DNA of 6,249 nucleotides from a virus. The stretch lies in IMG/VR virus record IMGVR_UViG_3300045988_006681, positions 1 through 6,249 of that record. One strand, written 5' to 3'. Each line of letters opens with the position of its first letter. The first letter of the stretch is position 1. Below, piece by piece: positions 761-6,249 of this stretch. Position numbers and translations under genes: made by a program. Below the pieces are notes generated by a model. The model worked only from the letters and a program-made list of their open reading frames with translations. It made no database searches and had not been told where the DNA came from.

Positions 761-1225
761 ATGAATTTTAAAGATTATTTTCTAAAATTGTATTTGGCTG
801 TTGGTTATTGTCCTTCTGTCGATTCTTATCCTCCAGAGAGTAAGGATTCGCTTTTGGATTATGATTCACTTTCAGTAATGTTTCCACTTAATGAAGAAAC
901 CGGACATGTAGTTGATTTGCTTACTCGTTTGTTGAATACTACAAATGAGTTGGAACGCAATCAGCTTATGCAGTATTTGCAAGATAATTCTTCTGCGTCA
1001 TCCTTTGATAAGCTTGACGATGAGACTAAATTGCAGTTGCTTAAACCTCGTTCTATTCAGTCTCTTGATGAGTTGTCTGAGTATGGTGATATGTTAAAAT
1101 CCGCTATTGAGCAGTTTAATGCTCCGTCTGACCCTGGTTCGTCTGACCCTGCTTCGTCTGACCCTGCTCCGTCTGACCCTGGTTCGTCTGACCCTGCTTC
1201 GTCTGACCCTGCTCCTGCGTCTTAA
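761..1225 (+). CDS. Acidic 154-aa protein with C-terminal SDPxS repeats; possible internal scaffolding (VP3-like) protein, function not established
   Basis: ORF from ATG 761 (the track's start at 755 is a TTG) to TAA 1223-1225, 17 nt after the VP1 stop. It uses the same T-ending codon bias as VP1/VP2. It is D/E-rich and has the size and position, next to the capsid genes, expected for a scaffolding protein. I recognise no diagnostic motif. Confidence 0.7.
   Translation: MNFKDYFLKLYLAVGYCPSVDSYPPESKDSLLDYDSLSVMFPLNEETGHVVDLLTRLLNTTNELERNQLMQYLQDNSSASSFDKLDDETKLQLLKPRSIQSLDELSEYGDMLKSAIEQFNAPSDPGSSDPASSDPAPSDPGSSDPASSDPAPAS
1121..1215 (+). repeat. Perfect tandem duplication of a 45-nt unit (1126-1170 = 1171-1215), itself three 15-nt subunits gtctgaccctgNtYc; encodes (SDPGS-SDPAS-SDPAP)x2
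   Basis: Six consecutive 15-mers read directly: gtctgaccctggttc, gtctgaccctgcttc and gtctgaccctgctcc, and then the same three again. The 5 nt gctcc at 1121-1125 also match the unit end. Confidence 0.97.
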
Positions 1226-2399: not shown

Positions 2400-2406
2400 T
2401 AAAATT

Positions 2407-2446
2407 GGTGCGCGCGCGTGTCTCACGTGTGTGCGCCTTTTTTTTT
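2407..2446 (+). terminator. Strong rho-independent terminator downstream of VP2
   Basis: ggtgcgcgcgcgtg / tct / cacgtgtgtgcgcc forms a 14-bp stem (10 Watson-Crick plus 4 G-U pairs, which pair only on the + strand). It is followed immediately by nine T (2438-2446) and starts 8 nt after the VP2 stop. Confidence 0.8.
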
Positions 2447-2538
2447 ATGTGCGAGTATCCGTTAAAGGATACGACAACCCAGCTTCTTTTACTCTATCCG
2501 TTAGGCATCAATACCTATGAAAAACACTAGCCTTTTTG

Positions 2539-2566
2539 TTTCTTTTTGGGCAATGCCAAAAAGAAA
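2539..2566 (+). other. Perfect 11-bp hairpin tttctttttgg / gcaatg / ccaaaaagaaa
   Basis: All 11 pairs (2539-2566 through 2549-2556) verified by hand. The 6-nt loop contains an ATG (2553-2555). Confidence 0.8.
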
Positions 2567-2567
2567 G

Positions 2568-2620
2568 CCGTCGGCAGACCCCGCGGAGCGTAAACGCGCT
2601 CGCTTCCGTGCGCCAGACGG
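2568..2620 (+). other. GC-rich irregular stem-loop
   Basis: ccgtc (2568-2572) pairs with gacgg (2616-2620). ggc (2573-2575) pairs with gcc (2612-2614), with A2615 bulged. cgcgg (2582-2586) pairs with ccgtg (2606-2610), including one G-U. The apical part (gagcg/cgctc or gcg-taaa-cgc) is ambiguous. Confidence 0.45.
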
Positions 2621-2631
2621 AAGGCAGGTTA

Positions 2632-2648
2632 TAGGGCTGCAAGCCCTA
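2632..2648 (+). other. Hairpin tagggct-gca-agcccta
   Basis: 7 contiguous complementary pairs (2632-2648 through 2638-2642). It may instead close at C2638-G2644 with loop tgcaa. Confidence 0.6.
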
Positions 2649-2674
2649 ATCGCCAGTTATCGTTAGTTCTCTGA

Positions 2675-2756
2675 GCGCAACATAATAGACGTTGCGACAT
2701 CAGAAAATTCTGCGTAGGCAAATTTTCCATGTCGTGACGTTTATTATGTTGTGCGC
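2675..2756 (+). other. Long extended hairpin A (about 36 bp over 82 nt)
   Basis: Lower stem of 26 bp, 2675-2700 with 2729-2756: a 2-nt bulge at 2751-2752 and three G-T pairs at 2694/2735, 2693/2736 and 2688/2741. It continues as gaaaatt (2703-2709) / aattttc (2721-2727) and tgc (2711-2713) / gca (2718-2720), with apical loop gtag. Confidence 0.85.
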
Positions 2757-2759
2757 CCG

Positions 2760-2766
2760 GCGAAGC
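2760..2766 (+). other. GCGAAGC mini-hairpin motif, copy 1 (in the 11-nt linker between hairpins A and B)
   Basis: Exact heptamer gcgaagc. The only other copy in the window is at 2880-2886. Confidence 0.6.
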
Positions 2767-2767
2767 A

Positions 2768-2841
2768 GAAAATGGACAATAATTTAGTCGTTTAAATTGC
2801 GACGAAGGAGCTTTTTAAACGTCTAGATTATGTTCATTTTC
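2768..2841 (+). other. Long extended hairpin B (about 27 bp over 74 nt)
   Basis: gaaaatggacaataatttagtcgtttaaa (2768-2796) pairs with tttaaacgtctagattatgttcattttc (2814-2841). Imperfections are one bulged A (2778), one T-T mismatch (2788/2822) and two G-T pairs (2775/2834, 2784/2826). The loop is 17 nt. Confidence 0.85.
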
Positions 2842-2876
2842 ACATTTTCTATTGTCGAACACTCAAGCAGGGAAAG

Positions 2877-2889
2877 CTGGCGAAGCCAG
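2877..2889 (+). other. Mini-hairpin ctggc-gaa-gccag containing GCGAAGC copy 2 (2880-2886)
   Basis: 5-bp GC-rich stem closing a GAA loop. Confidence 0.6.
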
Positions 2890-2919
2890 ACTATTTCTAC
2901 AGTTGTTTTGTACATTTTA

Positions 2920-2988
2920 TCAGTTTTCCCGTTAGGGCAAACCGCTCCCGTCGTTTGCAACCCCTCTTGTCTTATATACGAAAACTGA
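2920..2988 (+). other. Nested stem-loop domain: 9-bp closing helix with an internal 6-bp hairpin
   Basis: tcagttttc (2920-2928) pairs perfectly with gaaaactga (2980-2988). Inside it, gcaaac (2937-2942) pairs with gtttgc (2953-2958) around a 10-nt loop. gg (2935-2936) could pair with cc (2961-2962) across an AA bulge. Confidence 0.65.
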
Positions 2989-3042
2989 CAGAAAATATAT
3001 TTAATCTTGCTAGAGTCTTATTTTGTAAACTTAGACTTTGCA

Positions 3043-3054
3043 TTTCACGTGAAA
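3043..3054. repeat. Perfect 12-nt palindrome tttcacgtgaaa in the AT-rich tail of the non-coding module
   Basis: The sequence equals its own reverse complement. Flanking cat (3040-3042) and atg (3057-3059) extend the pairing across a 2-nt bulge. Confidence 0.7.
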
Positions 3055-3111
3055 CAATGTAAAATTAATTAAAAAACGTTATCATAATACCGGTTATAAT
3101 AAAATAATGCT

Positions 3112-3119
3112 TATATTTG
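3112..3119 (+). promoter_or_regulatory. Candidate Bacteroidota-type -7 promoter box (TAnnTTTG) for the early operon
   Basis: tatatttg is the only exact TAnnTTTG match I found by eye in 2447-3185. It lies 67 nt upstream of ATG 3186. I found no clear -33 TTTG at the expected spacing. Confidence 0.3.
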
Positions 3120-3185
3120 CCTTCGAAATCAGTTACATGGTGTTTCTGGTATATATTATTCATGTAAAAATAAATATTTTGGCTT

Positions 3186-3395
3186 ATGAAAAAGAAACTA
3201 CATTTGCAGCAATTTCTTCGTTGTGTGATTATGTATAATGACATTAATCATATACGGTCTTTACATTTTGCGGTTAATCCCGATTATGTAGACAATTTTT
3301 TAACTATTATACACGATACCTTTGTGAGTCCAGATGTGCAGTTTACTGATATTATCTATTCATATGATAATCGTGATTTTTTCAATCTCGTTTAA
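3186..3395 (+). CDS. Hypothetical 69-aa protein
   Basis: First ORF after the non-coding module. Its start context cttATGAAAAAG is like those of the other genes, and its stop lies 11 nt before the next ATG (operon-like packing). I recognise no motif. Confidence 0.5.
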   Translation: MKKKLHLQQFLRCVIMYNDINHIRSLHFAVNPDYVDNFLTIIHDTFVSPDVQFTDIIYSYDNRDFFNLV

Positions 3396-3406
3396 ATTTT
3401 GTAATT

Positions 3407-3613
3407 ATGAAAAAGGAAATTTTGAAAATTGTTATCAAAGTGTTAATCTATGCTTTAGGTCTTATTGGTAGTTATCTTGGTATTACTGCTTTGACTTCTT
3501 GCTCTTCTAACCGTGCTGTTGAGTGTTCTGGCAGAACAACTATTCTGATTCAAGATACCACTCATATTCAGCATTCTAGTGATTATTTTAGACGTTTCAA
3601 GTATAAATATTAA
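3407..3613 (+). CDS. Hypothetical 68-aa membrane-targeted protein; putative small lipoprotein
   Basis: MKKEILKIVIK (basic n-region), VLIYALGLIGSYLGITAL (hydrophobic h-region), then the lipobox-like L-T-S-C with Cys32, leaving a polar 36-residue tail. The ORF is spaced 11 nt from both neighbouring ORFs. Confidence 0.55.
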   Translation: MKKEILKIVIKVLIYALGLIGSYLGITALTSCSSNRAVECSGRTTILIQDTTHIQHSSDYFRRFKYKY

Positions 3614-3624
3614 ATTCTGTTATT

Positions 3625-5223
3625 ATGATTAGTATTAGAGACCAGACATACAAGATTCGCTCTATGGCTGATTATCAGCCATCAGAAAAGTGTTACAATC
3701 CTCAACGTATAGTTAACAAATATACTCATGAGGTTCTTTATGTTGAGTGTCGTAAATGTCCATATTGTCTACATAAGTATGCTACAGATTTAACTTCTCG
3801 CATAGTTCGTGAGTGCAAACAGCACAAATATAGTTTGTTTTTCACTCTCACTTATGATAATGAACATTTGCCTGTAATGGTTCGTCAGTGTGAGCATGTT
3901 TGGAAACTTGAAAATCGTGATGAAAAGCGTGATGGCTCTGTGCGTTCCCGTTACTTGTTCTTTGATAAAACACCTGATTATCAGTTTCCTCAAAAAATGT
4001 CTACTGATTGTTTTGCTGTTGTCTGCAAAGAAGATATTCAACGATTTCTTAAGCGTTTACGTTCAAAAATAGATTATGATTATGAATTATCCCAAGAACA
4101 AAAAACATTGCGTTACTTTATTTGTTCCGAGTATGGTCCCTGCACCAAACGTCCGCATTATCACGGAATCTTGTGGACCGATGACCCTACAATCTGTAGA
4201 GACTTGCCAAGGCTTATTCGTGCGACTTGGACGTTGTGTGCTCCTTCCAGAATTGATGCACAACTCGTCAGCGGTTCCGCTCCAGAGTACGTTGCGAAGT
4301 ATGTTGCTGGCAACAGCAATTTGTGCGAAGTTCTTCGAACTAAATATACCAAACCGTTCCACTTGGCTTCTAAGAACCCAGTTATCGGCTCTTTCAAAAC
4401 TACTCGAGAAGAAATTCTCGACGTACTCGTTAACCGATTTTTTGAAGTACCTAGAGTCCAAGATGGTTGTATTGAGGAAGCTTCCTATGATATATTACCC
4501 TACTCGTTTATTACTAGATACTTCCCTCCCTGCCAAGGCTTTAGCGTTTCGGATGATTCTTATAAACTATCATTATATGAAAAGTATAGAGATGGCAAGT
4601 ACCTCAAACGTGTTGACCCACAAACAAAACGGTATGTAAATAGTGAGCGCATAGGTTTTGCTTATGTTGATTGCCGATTTAGTTTTAAATATCAAGATTA
4701 TCGGTTCTTTCAGCATATTGTCTCTTTAGCTAATAAGCCTACTACCATTCCCAAACGTGATAAAAATGGTTTTATCGTTGGTTCGCAAGTTGTCTGTTTG
4801 TCTCCCTCCGATATTATTCATTTAATGGGTATGTTGTACGATTCTTACAAATTATATTGTTATAACTCTATGCTCCGCAATCTCGAAGTTATGTCTGATT
4901 ATTTAAAGGATTCTAGTCAATTGAAATTTTCTCTTTTGTCCTTTTATCCTTTTGTGTGGAAAGAGTTACCTCTATATTGTACTAAAGATGATTATGATTC
5001 TAAATTAGTTGTCGGTGGTTTATCTTTACGTAATATGTTGTCCGATTTCGGTTTTAAATATGAGGATATTTATTATGACGGTTGTATTTCTGATGATTTT
5101 ATTTCTGTTATGAATAATAATATCCTTGATAAAAATTATCGTATTCGTTTACAAGATAGTATTCTTAAAAATGATAAAAAGAAAAAGTATTCTGAGTTAT
5201 ATCTCGGTTTTAATCAAGTTTAA
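3625..5223 (+). CDS. VP4: Replication initiation protein VP4 (HUH rolling-circle endonuclease, gene A-like)
   Basis: 532-aa ORF with HUH-superfamily motifs in canonical order: motif I LFFTLTY (3835-3855), motif II PHYHGILW (4153-4176) and motif III two-tyrosine EYVAKYV (4285-4305). The N-terminal Cys cluster CYNP...CRKCPYC is typical of gokusho/alpa-type VP4. A start at Met14 (3664) cannot be excluded. Confidence 0.93.
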   Translation: MISIRDQTYKIRSMADYQPSEKCYNPQRIVNKYTHEVLYVECRKCPYCLHKYATDLTSRIVRECKQHKYSLFFTLTYDNEHLPVMVRQCEHVWKLENRDEKRDGSVRSRYLFFDKTPDYQFPQKMSTDCFAVVCKEDIQRFLKRLRSKIDYDYELSQEQKTLRYFICSEYGPCTKRPHYHGILWTDDPTICRDLPRLIRATWTLCAPSRIDAQLVSGSAPEYVAKYVAGNSNLCEVLRTKYTKPFHLASKNPVIGSFKTTREEILDVLVNRFFEVPRVQDGCIEEASYDILPYSFITRYFPPCQGFSVSDDSYKLSLYEKYRDGKYLKRVDPQTKRYVNSERIGFAYVDCRFSFKYQDYRFFQHIVSLANKPTTIPKRDKNGFIVGSQVVCLSPSDIIHLMGMLYDSYKLYCYNSMLRNLEVMSDYLKDSSQLKFSLLSFYPFVWKELPLYCTKDDYDSKLVVGGLSLRNMLSDFGFKYEDIYYDGCISDDFISVMNNNILDKNYRIRLQDSILKNDKKKKYSELYLGFNQV

Positions 5224-5239: not shown

Positions 5240-6249
5240 ATGAAATCAGTATTTAGTAAAAAGTCTTCTCAAGTTCATTTGCAGCGTAATGCGTTTGACT
5301 TGTCTCATTCCGACGTATTTTCTATTGCGCCTGGAATGCTTCTCCCTATTCATGTTTCTGAGGTTAATCCTAATGAGCATTTTGTTATTAGTCCTGCTAA
5401 TTATGTTCGCACTATGCCATTAAATAGTGCTGCCTTTACTCGTTTGAAACAGCATATTGAGTTTTATTTTGTTCCTATGCGTACATTATGCCGTCAATTT
5501 AATCAGTTTATCGTTGGTACTGATTATAAAATCTCTTCTATTGATTCTTTAAATACTTATAAAGCAGCTTTGCCTTCTTTTAATATCATCAATGCAGCTA
5601 AGGGATTAATTGGTGATCCTACTTTAAATATTTTTGGTCTTCCTTTATCTAATGACCGTCTTCGTCTTTTCGATATGTTAGGTTATGGTCTTAATTCATC
5701 TAACTATAAAACATTCGTTCCTGTTATTGATAGTTTTCTTGTCAATCCTTTTCGTTTTCTCGCTTACCAAAAGGTTTATTTTGACTATTATCGTAATCCT
5801 CTTTATGAGCTTAATGACCCGTCTGCTTATAATGTAGATTCCTCTTTTGGTAGTATCTATGATCTTACAACGAATTCTTCGACTCTTCGTTATCGTAATT
5901 GGAATAAAGATTATTTTACTTCTTTGTCTCCTAGTTTTCAAGGTGCTGATTATTTGACTGACGTTGTTGATATGTACTCTGTTTTGAAATTGGAAGATAA
6001 TTCTAATTTAAAAGGTCATGATTTTCTCCCTGGTACTTCTTCTAATTTAACTTGGCATGGTAATTCTGTTCCGGCTTCTAGTACTGTTGGTGCTCTTATA
6101 CGTTCCGATAGTTCAGGTAATGTGTTTAATATTGCTAACCTCCGTGCTGCCTATGCATTAGATAAATTATATCGTATCTCTATTGCTGCTGGTGATGGTG
6201 ATTACGGCTCTCAGATTAAGGCTCATTATGGTTTTGACGCTGTTCATGA
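5240..6249 (+). CDS. VP1: Major capsid protein VP1 (F-like), N-terminal part; 3' end runs off the window and continues at nt 3
   Basis: I translated from ATG 5240 by hand and found no stop before the window end (last full codon ends at 6247). This ORF is absent from the supplied track, presumably because it lacks a stop. It contains MKSVFSKKSSQVHLQRNAFDLSHSDVFSIAPGMLLPIHVSEVNPNEHF, AYQKVYFDYYRNPLY, RYRNWNKDYFTSLSPSFQG and LRAAYALDKLYRISIAAGDGDYGSQIKAHYGF. I recognise these blocks as conserved in Microviridae major capsid proteins. Confidence 0.93.
   Translation, partial: MKSVFSKKSSQVHLQRNAFDLSHSDVFSIAPGMLLPIHVSEVNPNEHFVISPANYVRTMPLNSAAFTRLKQHIEFYFVPMRTLCRQFNQFIVGTDYKISSIDSLNTYKAALPSFNIINAAKGLIGDPTLNIFGLPLSNDRLRLFDMLGYGLNSSNYKTFVPVIDSFLVNPFRFLAYQKVYFDYYRNPLYELNDPSAYNVDSSFGSIYDLTTNSSTLRYRNWNKDYFTSLSPSFQGADYLTDVVDMYSVLKLEDNSNLKGHDFLPGTSSNLTWHGNSVPASSTVGALIRSDSSGNVFNIANLRAAYALDKLYRISIAAGDGDYGSQIKAHYGFDAVH
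6195..6249. repeat. Terminal direct repeat, copy 2 (identical to 1-55)
   Basis: See 1-55. Confidence 0.97.

What the first reader, a model, noticed from the sequence alone, without database searches (positions are those of the whole stretch)
2673..2841. Twin long hairpins built from four copies of one ~15-nt core in alternating orientation, with G-T-only imperfections
Hairpin A (2675-2756, about 36 bp) and hairpin B (2768-2841, about 27 bp) are separated by only 11 nt. Their arms are four versions of one core: R1 aacataatagacgtt (2679-2693, +); R2 reverse complement aacataataaacgtc (2736-2750, -); R3 acaataatttagtcgtt (2776-2792, +); R4 reverse complement gaacataatctagacgtt (2818-2835, -). 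R1 equals R4rc apart from a 2-nt indel, so R1 could pair with R4 instead of R2. That would give a mutually exclusive alternative fold, a four-way or cruciform structure, or four binding sites for one protein (iteron-like). Of the six non-Watson-Crick oppositions in the two stems, five are G-T (2694/2735, 2693/2736, 2688/2741, 2775/2834, 2784/2826), one is T-T, and none is A-C. The upstream terminator adds four more G-T pairs. On the complementary strand these would all be A-C clashes. Selection therefore acts on the + strand, which is both the mRNA sense and, for Microviridae, the packaged strand.
Basis: seen in the sequence. Interest (0 to 1): 0.75.

Follow-up and report, generated by a model that had tools for sequence, protein, structure and literature searches.

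The report
Conserved twin ssDNA hairpins, microvirus intergenic region
Two long hairpins in the only non-coding stretch of a gut (Segatella/Prevotella) microvirus are real and are kept folded by many compensating mutations on the packaged strand, and they most likely mark where the host starts copying the incoming single-stranded genome, so this is a new example of a known kind of element.

Summary
Hairpin A (2675-2754, 36 pairs) and hairpin B (2768-2841, about 29 pairs) fold far better than shuffles (RNA z -10.7, DNA z -8.0).

Homologues occur in about 60 other microvirus contigs. Across 48 distinct sequences, 99.3% of pair cells are paired and 30 of 65 pairs show compensatory double changes. 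There are 227 G.T oppositions against 4 A.C, so selection acts on the + (packaged, coding-sense) strand.

The proposed R1-R4 alternative fold is 16-29 kcal/mol worse, and covariation does not follow it. The four-copy core shrinks to a basal RACAWAAT motif in divergent members.

Context changes the picture. The window is a circular temperate microvirus. Its dif-like attP lies at 3079-3106, as prophage junctions in Segatella/Prevotella-like contigs show, and not in the hairpins.

The hairpins sit behind the VP2 terminator and have no host-type promoter upstream. They belong to a mosaic non-coding module that is 85-99% identical between lineages whose VP1 is 27-30% identical.

The A-B linker is always GCGNAGC and the apex of B is always C(GNA)G. 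Both are DNA mini-hairpin motifs known from primase-dependent origins of G4-like phages.

Best reading (confidence about 0.48): a host-dependent complementary-strand origin. A structured RNA is the main rival.

The parts
2407..2446 (+). Intrinsic terminator after VP2: a 14-bp G+C-rich stem with four G.T pairs, followed by T9. It closes the single + strand transcription unit just upstream of the structured region.
   Evidence: stem and T-run are conserved in 50 relatives
2455..2472 (+). Small hairpin GTATCC-GTTAAA-GGATAC, followed by the conserved CGACAACCCAG.
   Evidence: compensatory GTTTCC/GGAAAC in L137, L095, L107 and L102
2515..2531 (+). The most widely conserved 17-mer of the module, CTATGAAAAACACTAGC. 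It is also present in relatives that lack the hairpins. Its function is untested; it is a candidate plus-strand origin.
   Evidence: 18 IMG/VR contigs. The ORF that starts here is not coding.
2538..2567 (+). Hairpin GTTTCTTTTTGG-GCAATG-CCAAAAAGAAAG of the core domain. Its stem length varies through matched indels in the two arms.
   Evidence: (I5)
2675..2754 (+). Hairpin A: 26-bp lower stem, 2x1 internal loop, 7+3 bp upper stem, and apical loop GTAG (2714-2717). It has four G.T pairs.
   Evidence: 15 of its 36 pairs show compensatory double changes and 99.4% of cells are paired. It is absent in L137, L158 and L095, which keep hairpin B.
2760..2766 (+). GCGAAGC in the 13-nt spacer between A and B. 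It matches the DNA mini-hairpin motif GCGNAGC.
   Evidence: GCGNAGC in 48/48 sequences with N = A, G or T. In 50 non-coding regions there are 130 copies on the + strand and 0 on the - strand. The motif is described in review PMC13037366.
2768..2841 (+). Hairpin B: invariant base GGACA/TGTTC with a fixed G.T at 2775/2834, and an apex closed as C2804(GAA)G2808 on tandem G.A/A.G.
   Evidence: 15 of 29 pairs show compensatory double changes. The apex is C(GNA)G in 48/48, with all four bases seen at N.
2842..2866 (+). Nearly invariant unpaired 3' flank ACATTTYC..TGGTCGAACACTCAA. It is retained even in variants that have only hairpin B.
2877..2889 (+). Small hairpin CTGGCGAAGCCAG carrying a further GCGAAGC (2880-2886).
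3043..3054 (.). Perfect palindrome TTTCACGTGAAA, conserved just upstream of attP. It is a possible protein-binding site.
3079..3106 (-). dif-like attP. On the minus strand it reads TTTTATTATAA-CCGGTA-TTATGATAACG. This is the crossover site for integration at the host dif.
   Evidence: Prophage junctions in L108, L109, L111, L133, L144, L145 and others. It matches the host dif at 23/28 positions and is the best site in the genome.
3112..3119 (+). Bacteroidota-type -7 promoter motif TATATTTG (TAnnTTTG), upstream of orf3186, orf3407, VP4 and VP1.
   Evidence: it lies on the phage side of attL in prophages

Best explanation
The twin hairpins, the GCGNAGC mini-hairpin between them and the invariant unpaired flank 3' of hairpin B are a structure of the packaged (+) single-stranded DNA. 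I propose that it acts as a host-dependent origin, or an enhancer, of complementary-strand synthesis (a single-strand initiation signal).

Proposed mechanism (inferred, not shown):
1. After the genome is injected, host SSB coats the DNA.
2. The long stems, capped and flanked by very stable GNA-type DNA mini-hairpins, stay folded.
3. They present a landmark at which the Segatella/Prevotella priming machinery (primase, or RNA polymerase acting as primase) makes the primer that converts ssDNA to the replicative form.
4. The same signal would serve for every + strand displaced during rolling-circle replication after prophage excision.

Hairpin B, the linker and the 3' flank form the constant unit. 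Hairpin A is an optional, probably paralogous, addition.

Shown here: the structure, its conservation and covariation, its strand specificity, its DNA-type loop motifs, its untranscribed setting, and its independence from the phage proteins. Inferred: the priming function and the host factor involved.
For: 1. The structure is real and selected. Folding z-scores are -10.7 (RNA) and -8.0 (DNA). 30 of 65 pairs have compensatory changes and 99.3% of cells are paired; 0/500 shuffles reach this and slid controls give at most 12.
2. It is specific to the + strand, which is the packaged strand in Microviridae (established knowledge). There are 227 G.T against 4 A.C, and the + strand is more stable in 48/48 sequences.
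3. The setting is the only non-coding gap, directly behind a strong intrinsic terminator. Among 50 relatives there is no conserved Bacteroidota -7 motif on the + strand between the terminator and the hairpins. A discrete transcript is therefore not expected.
4. The loops are DNA-type. The linker is GCGNAGC in 48/48 and the apex of B is C(GNA)G in 48/48, with N free. Divergent apexes of A are C(GNNA)G or C(GNA)G, with GTTA, GCTA and GATA, none of which is an RNA GNRA loop. GCGNAGC occurs 130 times on the + strand and 0 times on the - strand in the non-coding regions, with three copies in the window (Poisson P about 5e-5). Review PMC13037366 reports these motifs at the primase-dependent (-) origins of G4, St-1 and alpha3 and in RSF1010 ssiA (CCGAAGG), and reports that they bind SSB poorly.
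5. The function looks host-dependent rather than phage-protein-dependent. The cassette is 85-99% identical between genomes with VP1 27-30% and VP4 about 24% identical. All integrated copies share the same host flanks.
6. There is precedent. PMC9865509 found conserved, compensated hairpins in other microviruses and proposed the same role.
Against: - There is no experimental evidence.
- Relatives that carry the same module and sit in the same host flank (L107), and others (L002, L105, L094, L098, L003), lack both hairpins and show no other long hairpin. Hairpin A alone is missing in L137, L158 and L095. The cassette is therefore not indispensable: another part of the module could be the primary origin and A/B an accessory.
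- No host promoter element is conserved in the stems. TAnnTTTG is present in 22/50 and flips with compensatory changes.
- The ssoA hallmark CS-6 is absent.
- G.T tolerance and covariation fit an RNA equally well.
Confidence: 0.48

Rival explanations
1. The hairpins act as RNA. They would be a structured non-coding RNA or a 3'-UTR-derived element made by read-through of the VP2 terminator, for example to stabilise the late mRNA or as a regulatory or immunity RNA in lysogens.
For: G.U pairs at fixed positions and strong covariation are typical of functional RNAs. The RNA fold is very stable. The sense strand is the one under selection.
Against: - A strong terminator lies immediately upstream.
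- No conserved host-type promoter lies between it and the hairpins.
- There is no terminator-like 3' end after B, because its base is A-U rich.
- There is no Rfam match.
- The loops follow DNA mini-hairpin rules (GNA triloops, GNNA with a pyrimidine at position 3) rather than GNRA or UNCG.
- Uninterrupted helices of 26 bp and 19 bp would be RNase III substrates (established knowledge).
Confidence: 0.13
2. The hairpins have some other role in the packaged ssDNA that is not priming. Examples are a packaging or orientation signal like hairpin [A] of f1, a barrier or pause signal for rolling-circle synthesis, or protection of the ssDNA against host nucleases or defence systems.
For: The same evidence for + strand ssDNA structure applies. 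The f1 packaging signal is likewise a long imperfect hairpin of about 78 nt placed directly after a terminator (established knowledge). The cassette is optional within the family, as expected for an accessory function.
Against: Packaging in microviruses is coupled to rolling-circle synthesis into procapsids, and no packaging signal is known in the family (established knowledge for phiX174). Independence from the very divergent capsid and Rep proteins argues against a signal read by phage proteins.
Confidence: 0.12
3. The hairpins are related to Xer recombination. They would be folded ssDNA dif-like sites as in CTXphi attP(+), or XerD-binding decoy or accessory sites, because each hairpin base carries ATTATGTT, which resembles a XerD half-site.
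For: The genome does use the host dif/Xer system. PMC3091885 reports an additional dif-like sequence near one end of Prevotella proviruses BMV4-6 and draws the CTX analogy. TTATGTTCATT in the 3' arm of B matches the bacterial XerD-arm consensus at 10/11 positions.
Against: - All prophage junctions fall at 3079-3106, 240-430 nt away from the hairpins.
- The hairpins have no XerC arm (no ..ATAA) and no matching central region.
- XerD-like 11-mers with 10/11 matches occur seven times in this AT-rich genome, so the resemblance is at chance level.
- The host XerD arm is TTATGGTAAAT, and attP itself, not the hairpins, resembles it.
Confidence: 0.06
4. The four core copies are double-stranded DNA binding sites (iterons or operators) for one protein, either VP4 at a plus-strand origin or a regulator.
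For: The basal motif RACAWAAT/ATTWTGTY is conserved in sequence, not only in pairing, in both hairpins. VP4 matches the gpII-like Rep family PF23343, whose origins contain repeated binding sites (established knowledge for f1).
Against: - A purely dsDNA role does not explain compensatory changes at 30 pairs or the G.T-only asymmetry.
- The cassette is near-identical between genomes whose VP4 is about 24% identical.
- The cassette is absent from viable-looking relatives.
Confidence: 0.04
5. The region is a conformational switch between the A/B fold and an R1:R4 + R2:R3 fold (four-way or cruciform alternative).
For: R1 and the reverse complement of R4 are nearly identical in the window, so the alternative helices are possible on paper. 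97% of cells can pair because the core is invariant.
Against: The alternative is 29 kcal/mol (RNA) or 16 kcal/mol (DNA) less stable. At the only variable core position the cross-hairpin pair is broken in 6 sequences and kept in 2, while the within-hairpin pairs are always compensated. Variants without hairpin A cannot form it.
Confidence: 0.02

Closest known systems
Primase-dependent complementary-strand origins of G4, St-1 and alpha3 (Microviridae, Bullavirinae)
   Same: Both are clusters of stable hairpins on the packaged + strand in a non-coding gap. Both contain DNA mini-hairpin motifs: GCGAAAGC or GCGTTAGC in those phages, GCGNAGC and C(GNA)G here. Both depend on host rather than phage proteins (review PMC13037366).
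   Different: There is no sequence homology. Here there are two much longer stems (36 and about 29 bp) rather than three short hairpins. The host is a Bacteroidota species whose primase specificity is unknown, and no priming has been demonstrated.
Minus-strand origin of filamentous phages f1/M13 (hairpins [B] and [C] of the intergenic region)
   Same: Both have two adjacent long imperfect hairpins of about 150-170 nt in total, on the packaged strand. Both lie in a multi-hairpin intergenic region right after a terminator and before the early promoter. Function depends on orientation (established knowledge).
   Different: In f1 the stems mimic -35/-10 promoter elements for RNA polymerase. Here the host -7 motif is not conserved in the stems. 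The virus family is different and the sequences are unrelated.
Single-strand origins (ssoA/ssoU/ssoT/ssoW) of rolling-circle plasmids and ssi signals such as RSF1010 ssiA
   Same: They are host-specific, strand-specific, non-coding hairpin cassettes that are exchanged between replicons independently of the Rep gene. ssiA carries a CCGAAGG mini-hairpin like the ACGNAGG apex of hairpin B.
   Different: The ssoA hallmark CS-6 (TAGCGW) is absent. The RSB element was not examined. RSF1010 ssi sites are read by a plasmid primase, whereas no primase is encoded here.
Conserved intergenic hairpins of reekeekee- and roodoodoo-microviruses (PMC9865509)
   Same: Both are hairpins found by comparative genomics in microvirus non-coding regions, with compensatory substitutions, and both are proposed but unproven minus-strand origins.
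   Different: The clades, hosts and sequences differ, and those are single, shorter hairpins (13-64 nt). Here the element is a twin hairpin with mini-hairpin caps inside a module shared across deeply divergent lineages.
CTXphi attP(+) folded hairpin (XerCD substrate)
   Same: Both are in ssDNA phages that use host XerCD/dif, and both have a long hairpin formed by inverted repeats on the + strand.
   Different: The integration junction is not in the hairpins, and the hairpins do not reconstitute XerC and XerD arms. Integration here looks like the double-stranded type seen in VGJphi and the enterogokushoviruses (PMC7062461).

Membership tests
G4/St-1/alpha3-type primase-dependent (-) origin | A cluster of stable hairpins on the packaged strand in a non-coding region. 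| tested here: met
G4/St-1/alpha3-type primase-dependent (-) origin | A mini-hairpin motif (GCGNNAGC or GCGNAGC type) at the priming hairpin. | tested here: met
   GCGNAGC in the linker in 48/48 and C(GNA)G at the apex of B in 48/48. It is found only on the + strand, 130 against 0. The motif definition comes from PMC13037366.
G4/St-1/alpha3-type primase-dependent (-) origin | Primer RNA made by host primase at a defined trinucleotide 3' of the hairpin on SSB-coated ssDNA. | not testable with these tools
   This needs in vitro priming or 5'-end mapping. The invariant 3' flank 2842-2866 is the candidate site.
f1/M13-type RNA-polymerase-dependent (-) origin | Two adjacent long hairpins on the + strand in the intergenic region after a terminator. 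| tested here: met
f1/M13-type RNA-polymerase-dependent (-) origin | Host promoter-like elements presented in the stems. | tested here: not met
   The Bacteroidota -7 motif TAnnTTTG is in the 5' arm of B in only 22/50 sequences and flips with a compensatory change. There is no -33 TTTG at the right distance.
ssoA of rolling-circle plasmids | The CS-6 sequence (TAGCGT/A) in the terminal loop. | tested here: not met
   The only TAGCGW in the window is at 4542.
ssoA of rolling-circle plasmids | The RSB recombination/RNA-polymerase binding sequence in the stem. | not tested
   No reference sequence was at hand.
phiX174-type PriA primosome assembly site | A hairpin of about 55 nt recognised by PriA (n'). 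| not testable with these tools
   No sequence consensus is available; it needs PriA binding or ATPase assays.
CTXphi-type folded attP(+) | The prophage junction falls inside the hairpin. | tested here: not met
   Junctions lie at window 3079-3106 in all prophage contigs examined.
CTXphi-type folded attP(+) | The stem reconstitutes XerC and XerD arms around a central region resembling the host dif. | tested here: not met
   There is only a XerD-like half-site, at chance frequency, and no XerC arm. The hairpin 28-mers match the host dif at no more than 15/28 positions, against 23/28 for the true attP.
Any Rfam RNA family | A score at or above the family gathering threshold. | tested here: not met
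   The best hit is 17.9 bits against a threshold of 40 (snR98, E 0.11-0.9).
XerCD/dif-integrating microvirus (context of the element) | A 28-bp dif-like site in the phage and dif-like direct repeats flanking the prophages. | tested here: met
   a bacterial flank (CusA/CzcA, 85% identical to Segatella copri)
XerCD/dif-integrating microvirus (context of the element) | No phage-encoded recombinase. | tested here: met
   The ORF inventory is VP1, ORF755, VP2, two ORFs of 68-69 aa, and VP4. Pfam gives only a Rep domain, in VP4. VP1 and VP2 were assigned by homology only.

The most novel reading that the evidence does not exclude
The twin hairpins are not a replication signal. They would be the core of a discrete structured + strand RNA of about 190 nt, expressed from the prophage or by read-through, that regulates lysogeny or superinfection. 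That would be the first non-coding RNA class described in Microviridae, travelling with attP and a small lipoprotein gene as a host-adaptation cassette exchanged between microvirus families.
Probability: 0.12. Interest if true: 0.75.

Novelty: new variant of a known kind. Interest (0 to 1): 0.5.

Why it matters
Minus-strand origins are known experimentally only for the phiX174/G4 group and the filamentous phages. For the microviruses that dominate the human and pig gut, nothing is known about how the incoming ssDNA is primed.

This element has exact coordinates and 30 covarying pairs. Its invariant unit is GCGNAGC, hairpin B and the 3' flank. It occurs in phages of Segatella/Prevotella, a major gut genus. 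That makes the question testable with synthetic-genome resurrection, as was done for the enterogokushoviruses.

The module also shows that non-coding, host-interaction DNA moves between microvirus lineages whose capsids are only 27-30% identical. That qualifies the view that microviruses rarely exchange genetic material.

Tried and rejected
- **Rfam** (whole window and 2400-3200 at permissive E-values): only sub-threshold chance hits.
- **tRNA/tmRNA scan:** none found.
- **CTX-like folded dif site in the hairpins:** rejected, because the junctions are at 3079-3106 and the dif-likeness of the arms is at chance level.
- **R1:R4 alternative fold:** rejected on energy and on covariation.
- **Long-range helix 2449-2454 / 2855-2862 closing a 415-nt domain** (suggested by alifold): not supported. 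Both sides are invariant, L095 breaks a pair, and the 5' piece occurs without the hairpins.
- **ORF 2517-2666 as a small protein:** rejected. Three different frames are used across the hairpin, lengths range from 11 to 117 aa, and many copies have premature stops.
- **Bacteroidota promoter inside hairpin B (TAATTTTG):** not conserved.
- **ssoA CS-6 motif:** absent.
- **L078 (11.7 kb) as a tandem of two microviruses** that might explain module exchange: rejected. The extra DNA is a host restriction-modification flank.
- **An equivalent long hairpin in relatives that lack A/B:** none found.
- **The low-complexity pattern GAAAATTCT..AAATTTTCC in IMG/VR:** gave mostly chance hits and was replaced by a more specific pattern.
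Full report
**What the window is.** The 6249 bases are a circular microvirus genome of 6194 nt; bases 1-55 repeat at 6195-6249. All genes are on the + strand:
- VP1: 5240, wrapping round to 743
- an ORF at 755-1225
- VP2: 1284-2399
- two small ORFs: 3186-3395 and 3407-3613
- VP4: 3625-5223, with a Rep domain PF23343

The only non-coding gap is 2400-3185. It is richer in G+C (47-50%) than the rest of the genome (about 33%). The finding lies in the middle of this gap.

**The observation.** With RNA or DNA parameters, 2660-2860 folds into the same two stem-loops. The energies are far below those of dinucleotide shuffles: RNA -83.7 kcal/mol, z -10.65; DNA -44.4 kcal/mol, z -7.97; 0/200 shuffles in both cases.
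- Hairpin A spans 2675-2754 with 36 pairs, four of them G.T.
- Hairpin B spans 2768-2841 with 27-30 pairs, two of them G.T, plus one T.T opposition and one bulged A.
- There is no A.C opposition.
- The minus strand folds less well (-62.9 kcal/mol).

**Relatives and covariation.** blastn against GenBank phages showed that parts of the gap are conserved in pig-faeces microviruses. MG945191 carries both hairpins at only about 70% identity. A pattern taken from invariant positions (AGCAGAAAANGGACA, 45-62 nt, TGTTCNTTTTYACATTT) found the cassette in 12 loci already fetched (11 IMG/VR contigs and GenBank MG945191), 46 metagenome contigs and one GTDB contig.

I aligned 48 distinct sequences (A4). For the two hairpins:
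- 99.3% of 3117 pair cells are standard pairs.
- 30 of 65 pairs carry compensatory double changes. The shuffle mean is 11.3 and 0/500 shuffles reach 30. Sliding the partner by 1-3 columns gives 6-12.
- G.T/T.G cells number 227, against 4 A.C/C.A.
- 18 pair columns ever show G.T, against 4 that ever show A.C.
- Several wobble pairs sit at fixed positions, for example 2677/2752, 2688/2741 and 2775/2834.
- The + strand fold is more stable than the - strand fold in 48/48 sequences, with RNA parameters (mean difference 17.5 kcal/mol) and with DNA parameters (5.1 kcal/mol).

Selection for intrastrand pairing on the + strand is therefore well supported.

- The shared core is real in the window (AACATAA--TAGACGTT; 6/2000 shuffles). 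In divergent members (L097, L101, MG945191) only the basal RACAWAAT/ATTWTGTY motif remains common to A and B.
- Forcing R1 to pair with R4 costs 29 kcal/mol (RNA) or 16 kcal/mol (DNA).
- At the one core position that varies, changes are always compensated within a hairpin (7 and 3 double changes, none broken). They break the cross-hairpin pair in 6 of 8 cases.
- Variants that lack hairpin A altogether (L137, L158, L095) cannot form the alternative at all.

I reject the switch or cruciform reading.

**Context: a temperate, dif-integrating phage.** Many cassette-bearing contigs are longer than a microvirus genome. In all of them, homology to the window stops at about 3106, while window 3079-3189 reappears at the other end of the phage genes.

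The 28-bp overlap, TTATCATAATACCGGTTATAATAAAATA (3079-3106), flanks the prophages as imperfect direct repeats. The bacterial flanks are constant. Read on the minus strand, the sites have dif architecture:

| Site | XerC arm | centre | XerD arm |
|---|---|---|---|
| host dif | TTTAATTCTAA | CCGGTA | TTATGGTAAAT |
| phage attP | TTTTATTATAA | CCGGTA | TTATGATAACG |

The phage attP is by far the best match to the host dif in the genome, at 23/28 positions.

One left flank encodes a CusA/CzcA RND pump and an outer-membrane factor. The pump is 85% identical to Segatella copri and Prevotella proteins. The host is therefore a Prevotellaceae species.

This agrees with two published reports:
- dif-flanked microvirus proviruses in Bacteroidales (PMC3091885)
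- XerCD-dependent integration shown experimentally for the enterogokushoviruses (PMC7062461)

Neither paper mentions hairpins. attP is not in the hairpins, which lie 240-430 nt upstream of it at the right end of the prophage.

**Are the hairpins dif-like?** Each hairpin base contains ATTATGTT, which resembles a XerD half-site. I tested this idea and found no support:
- XerD-consensus 11-mers with 10/11 matches occur seven times in this AT-rich genome.
- The stems have no XerC arm.
- The hairpin 28-mers resemble the host dif no better than coding sequence does.

The CTXphi analogy is therefore not supported, though XerD binding cannot be excluded without experiments.

**The module.** The gap is a mosaic of elements:
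- terminator, 2407-2446
- a small hairpin, 2455-2472
- a core with the invariant 17-mer CTATGAAAAACACTAGC (2515-2531) and several hairpins
- hairpin A
- GCGNAGC
- hairpin B
- an invariant unpaired flank, 2842-2866
- a variable stretch
- the palindrome TTTCACGTGAAA, 3043-3054
- attP
- a Bacteroidota-type -7 promoter motif, TATATTTG, 3112-3119

The ORF that starts in the 17-mer is not coding: three frames, 11-117 aa.

Some relatives have B but not A (L137, L158, L095). Others have neither hairpin and no substitute long hairpin (L002, L105, L107, L094, L098, L003). L107 sits in the same host flank. GCGNAGC, hairpin B and the flank are thus the constant unit of the cassette, A is optional, and the whole cassette is dispensable in some genomes.

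**Exchange between lineages.** The cassette is 85-99% identical to the window's in genomes whose VP1 is 27-30% and VP4 about 24% identical. In genomes with about 50% VP1 identity (L097, L101) it is only 68-70% identical. The lipoprotein-like orf3407 travels with it, at 55-93% identity.

The module has therefore been exchanged between deeply divergent microvirus lineages that use the same host. That argues the hairpins are read by host factors and not by VP4 or the capsid proteins.

**DNA or RNA?** Both readings use the + strand. Three points favour DNA.
1. The hairpins lie directly behind a strong intrinsic terminator. No conserved host-type promoter lies between it and them in 50 relatives. 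No terminator follows B.
2. The loops obey the rules of DNA mini-hairpins.
   - The spacer is GCGNAGC in 48/48 (N = A, G or T).
   - The apex of B is C(GNA)G in 48/48, with all four bases seen at N.
   - Divergent apexes of A are C(GTTA)G, C(GCTA)G, C(GATA)G, C(GAA)G and C(GTA)G, which do not fit the RNA GNRA loop.
   - GCGNAGC occurs 130 times on the + strand and never on the - strand in the 50 non-coding regions. It occurs three times in the window's 786-nt gap (Poisson P about 5e-5).
   - The review of these motifs reports them at the primase start sites of G4, St-1 and alpha3 and in RSF1010 ssiA (CCGAAGG), and reports poor SSB binding (PMC13037366).
3. Uninterrupted helices of 26 bp and 19 bp would be RNase III substrates if made as RNA (established knowledge).

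None of these points is decisive.

**Mechanism proposed.** On the incoming SSB-coated + strand, the two stems and the mini-hairpins remain folded. They mark the place where the host priming machinery starts the complementary strand. The invariant unpaired flank 3' of B (2842-2866) is the natural candidate for the primer start, by analogy with G4, where priming starts 3' of hairpin I and runs into it. This is an inference.

Arguments against:
- The cassette is optional.
- No promoter element is conserved in the stems, so an f1-type mechanism is not supported.
- The ssoA CS-6 motif is absent.

I put 0.48 on this explanation, 0.13 on an RNA function, 0.12 on another ssDNA-level role, 0.06 on a Xer-related role, and less on dsDNA iterons or a conformational switch.

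**Novelty and interest.** Hairpin-based minus-strand origins are a known kind. Conserved, compensated hairpins have been noted in other microviruses and given the same tentative role (PMC9865509).

What is new here:
- a specific, well-supported structural family of about 60 members with 30 covarying pairs
- no Rfam match
- DNA mini-hairpin caps
- an abundant group of Segatella/Prevotella phages as carriers
- its place inside a non-coding module that moves between lineages

I rate it a new variant of a known kind, with interest 0.5.

Noticed in passing
window 3079-3106 (and prophage junctions in L108, L109, L111, L133, L144, L145): There is a dif-like attP (minus strand TTTTATTATAA-CCGGTA-TTATGATAACG). 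Prophages are flanked by imperfect 28-bp repeats with constant host flanks. The host dif deduced from them is TTTAATTCTAA-CCGGTA-TTATGGTAAAT. One flank encodes a CusA pump 85% identical to Segatella copri. The phage is therefore temperate and integrates at the host dif.
   Followed up: yes
window 2400-3613 compared with L037, L119, L135, L142 and others: The non-coding module and the two small ORFs are 85-99% (nt) and 55-93% (aa) conserved between genomes whose VP1 is 27-30% and VP4 about 24% identical. Closer capsid relatives (L097, L101) have a more divergent cassette. This indicates module exchange between microvirus lineages.
   Followed up: partly
window 2515-2531: The invariant 17-mer CTATGAAAAACACTAGC is found in 18 IMG/VR microvirus contigs, including those without the hairpins. 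It shares AACACTA with the phiX174 origin (recalled from memory). It could be the plus-strand origin.
   Followed up: no
window 2517-2666: This 49-codon ORF (MKNTSL...) is annotated as a hypothetical protein in MG945191. It is not coding: relatives use three different frames across the hairpin, and lengths range from 11 to 117 aa.
   Followed up: yes
window 3407-3613: orf3407 encodes a 68-aa protein with a signal peptide and a lipobox-like LTSC. It is conserved across lineages together with the module. It may act in lysis or superinfection exclusion. It has no Pfam hit.
   Followed up: partly
window 3043-3054: The perfect palindrome TTTCACGTGAAA is conserved immediately upstream of attP in nearly all relatives. 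It is a possible regulator or accessory-protein site.
   Followed up: no
window 1128-1217: Six tandem 15-nt units (TCTGACCCTGSTYCG) encode SDP(G/A)(S/P) repeats at the C-terminus of the ORF at 755-1225.
   Followed up: no
L108 (GTDB contig CAVBFV010000077.1): This 11.3-kb contig, in a bin labelled Lachnospiraceae, carries the prophage with the same att flanks as contigs whose flanks look like Segatella/Prevotella. It is probably mis-binned.
   Followed up: partly
L078 1-6990; L150 2202-4043: The host DNA to the right of the dif site differs between contigs. In L078 it is a MutH-like endonuclease plus a C5 methylase. In L150 and L143 it is an AAA-ATPase/PD-(D/E)XK protein, and L143 also has McrC. 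Defence genes therefore sit next to dif.
   Followed up: partly
window 2583-2589 and 2880-2886: There are two further + strand GCGNAGC motifs (GCGGAGC and GCGAAGC) in small hairpins of the same gap. The 5.4 kb of coding sequence has none on the + strand.
   Followed up: partly
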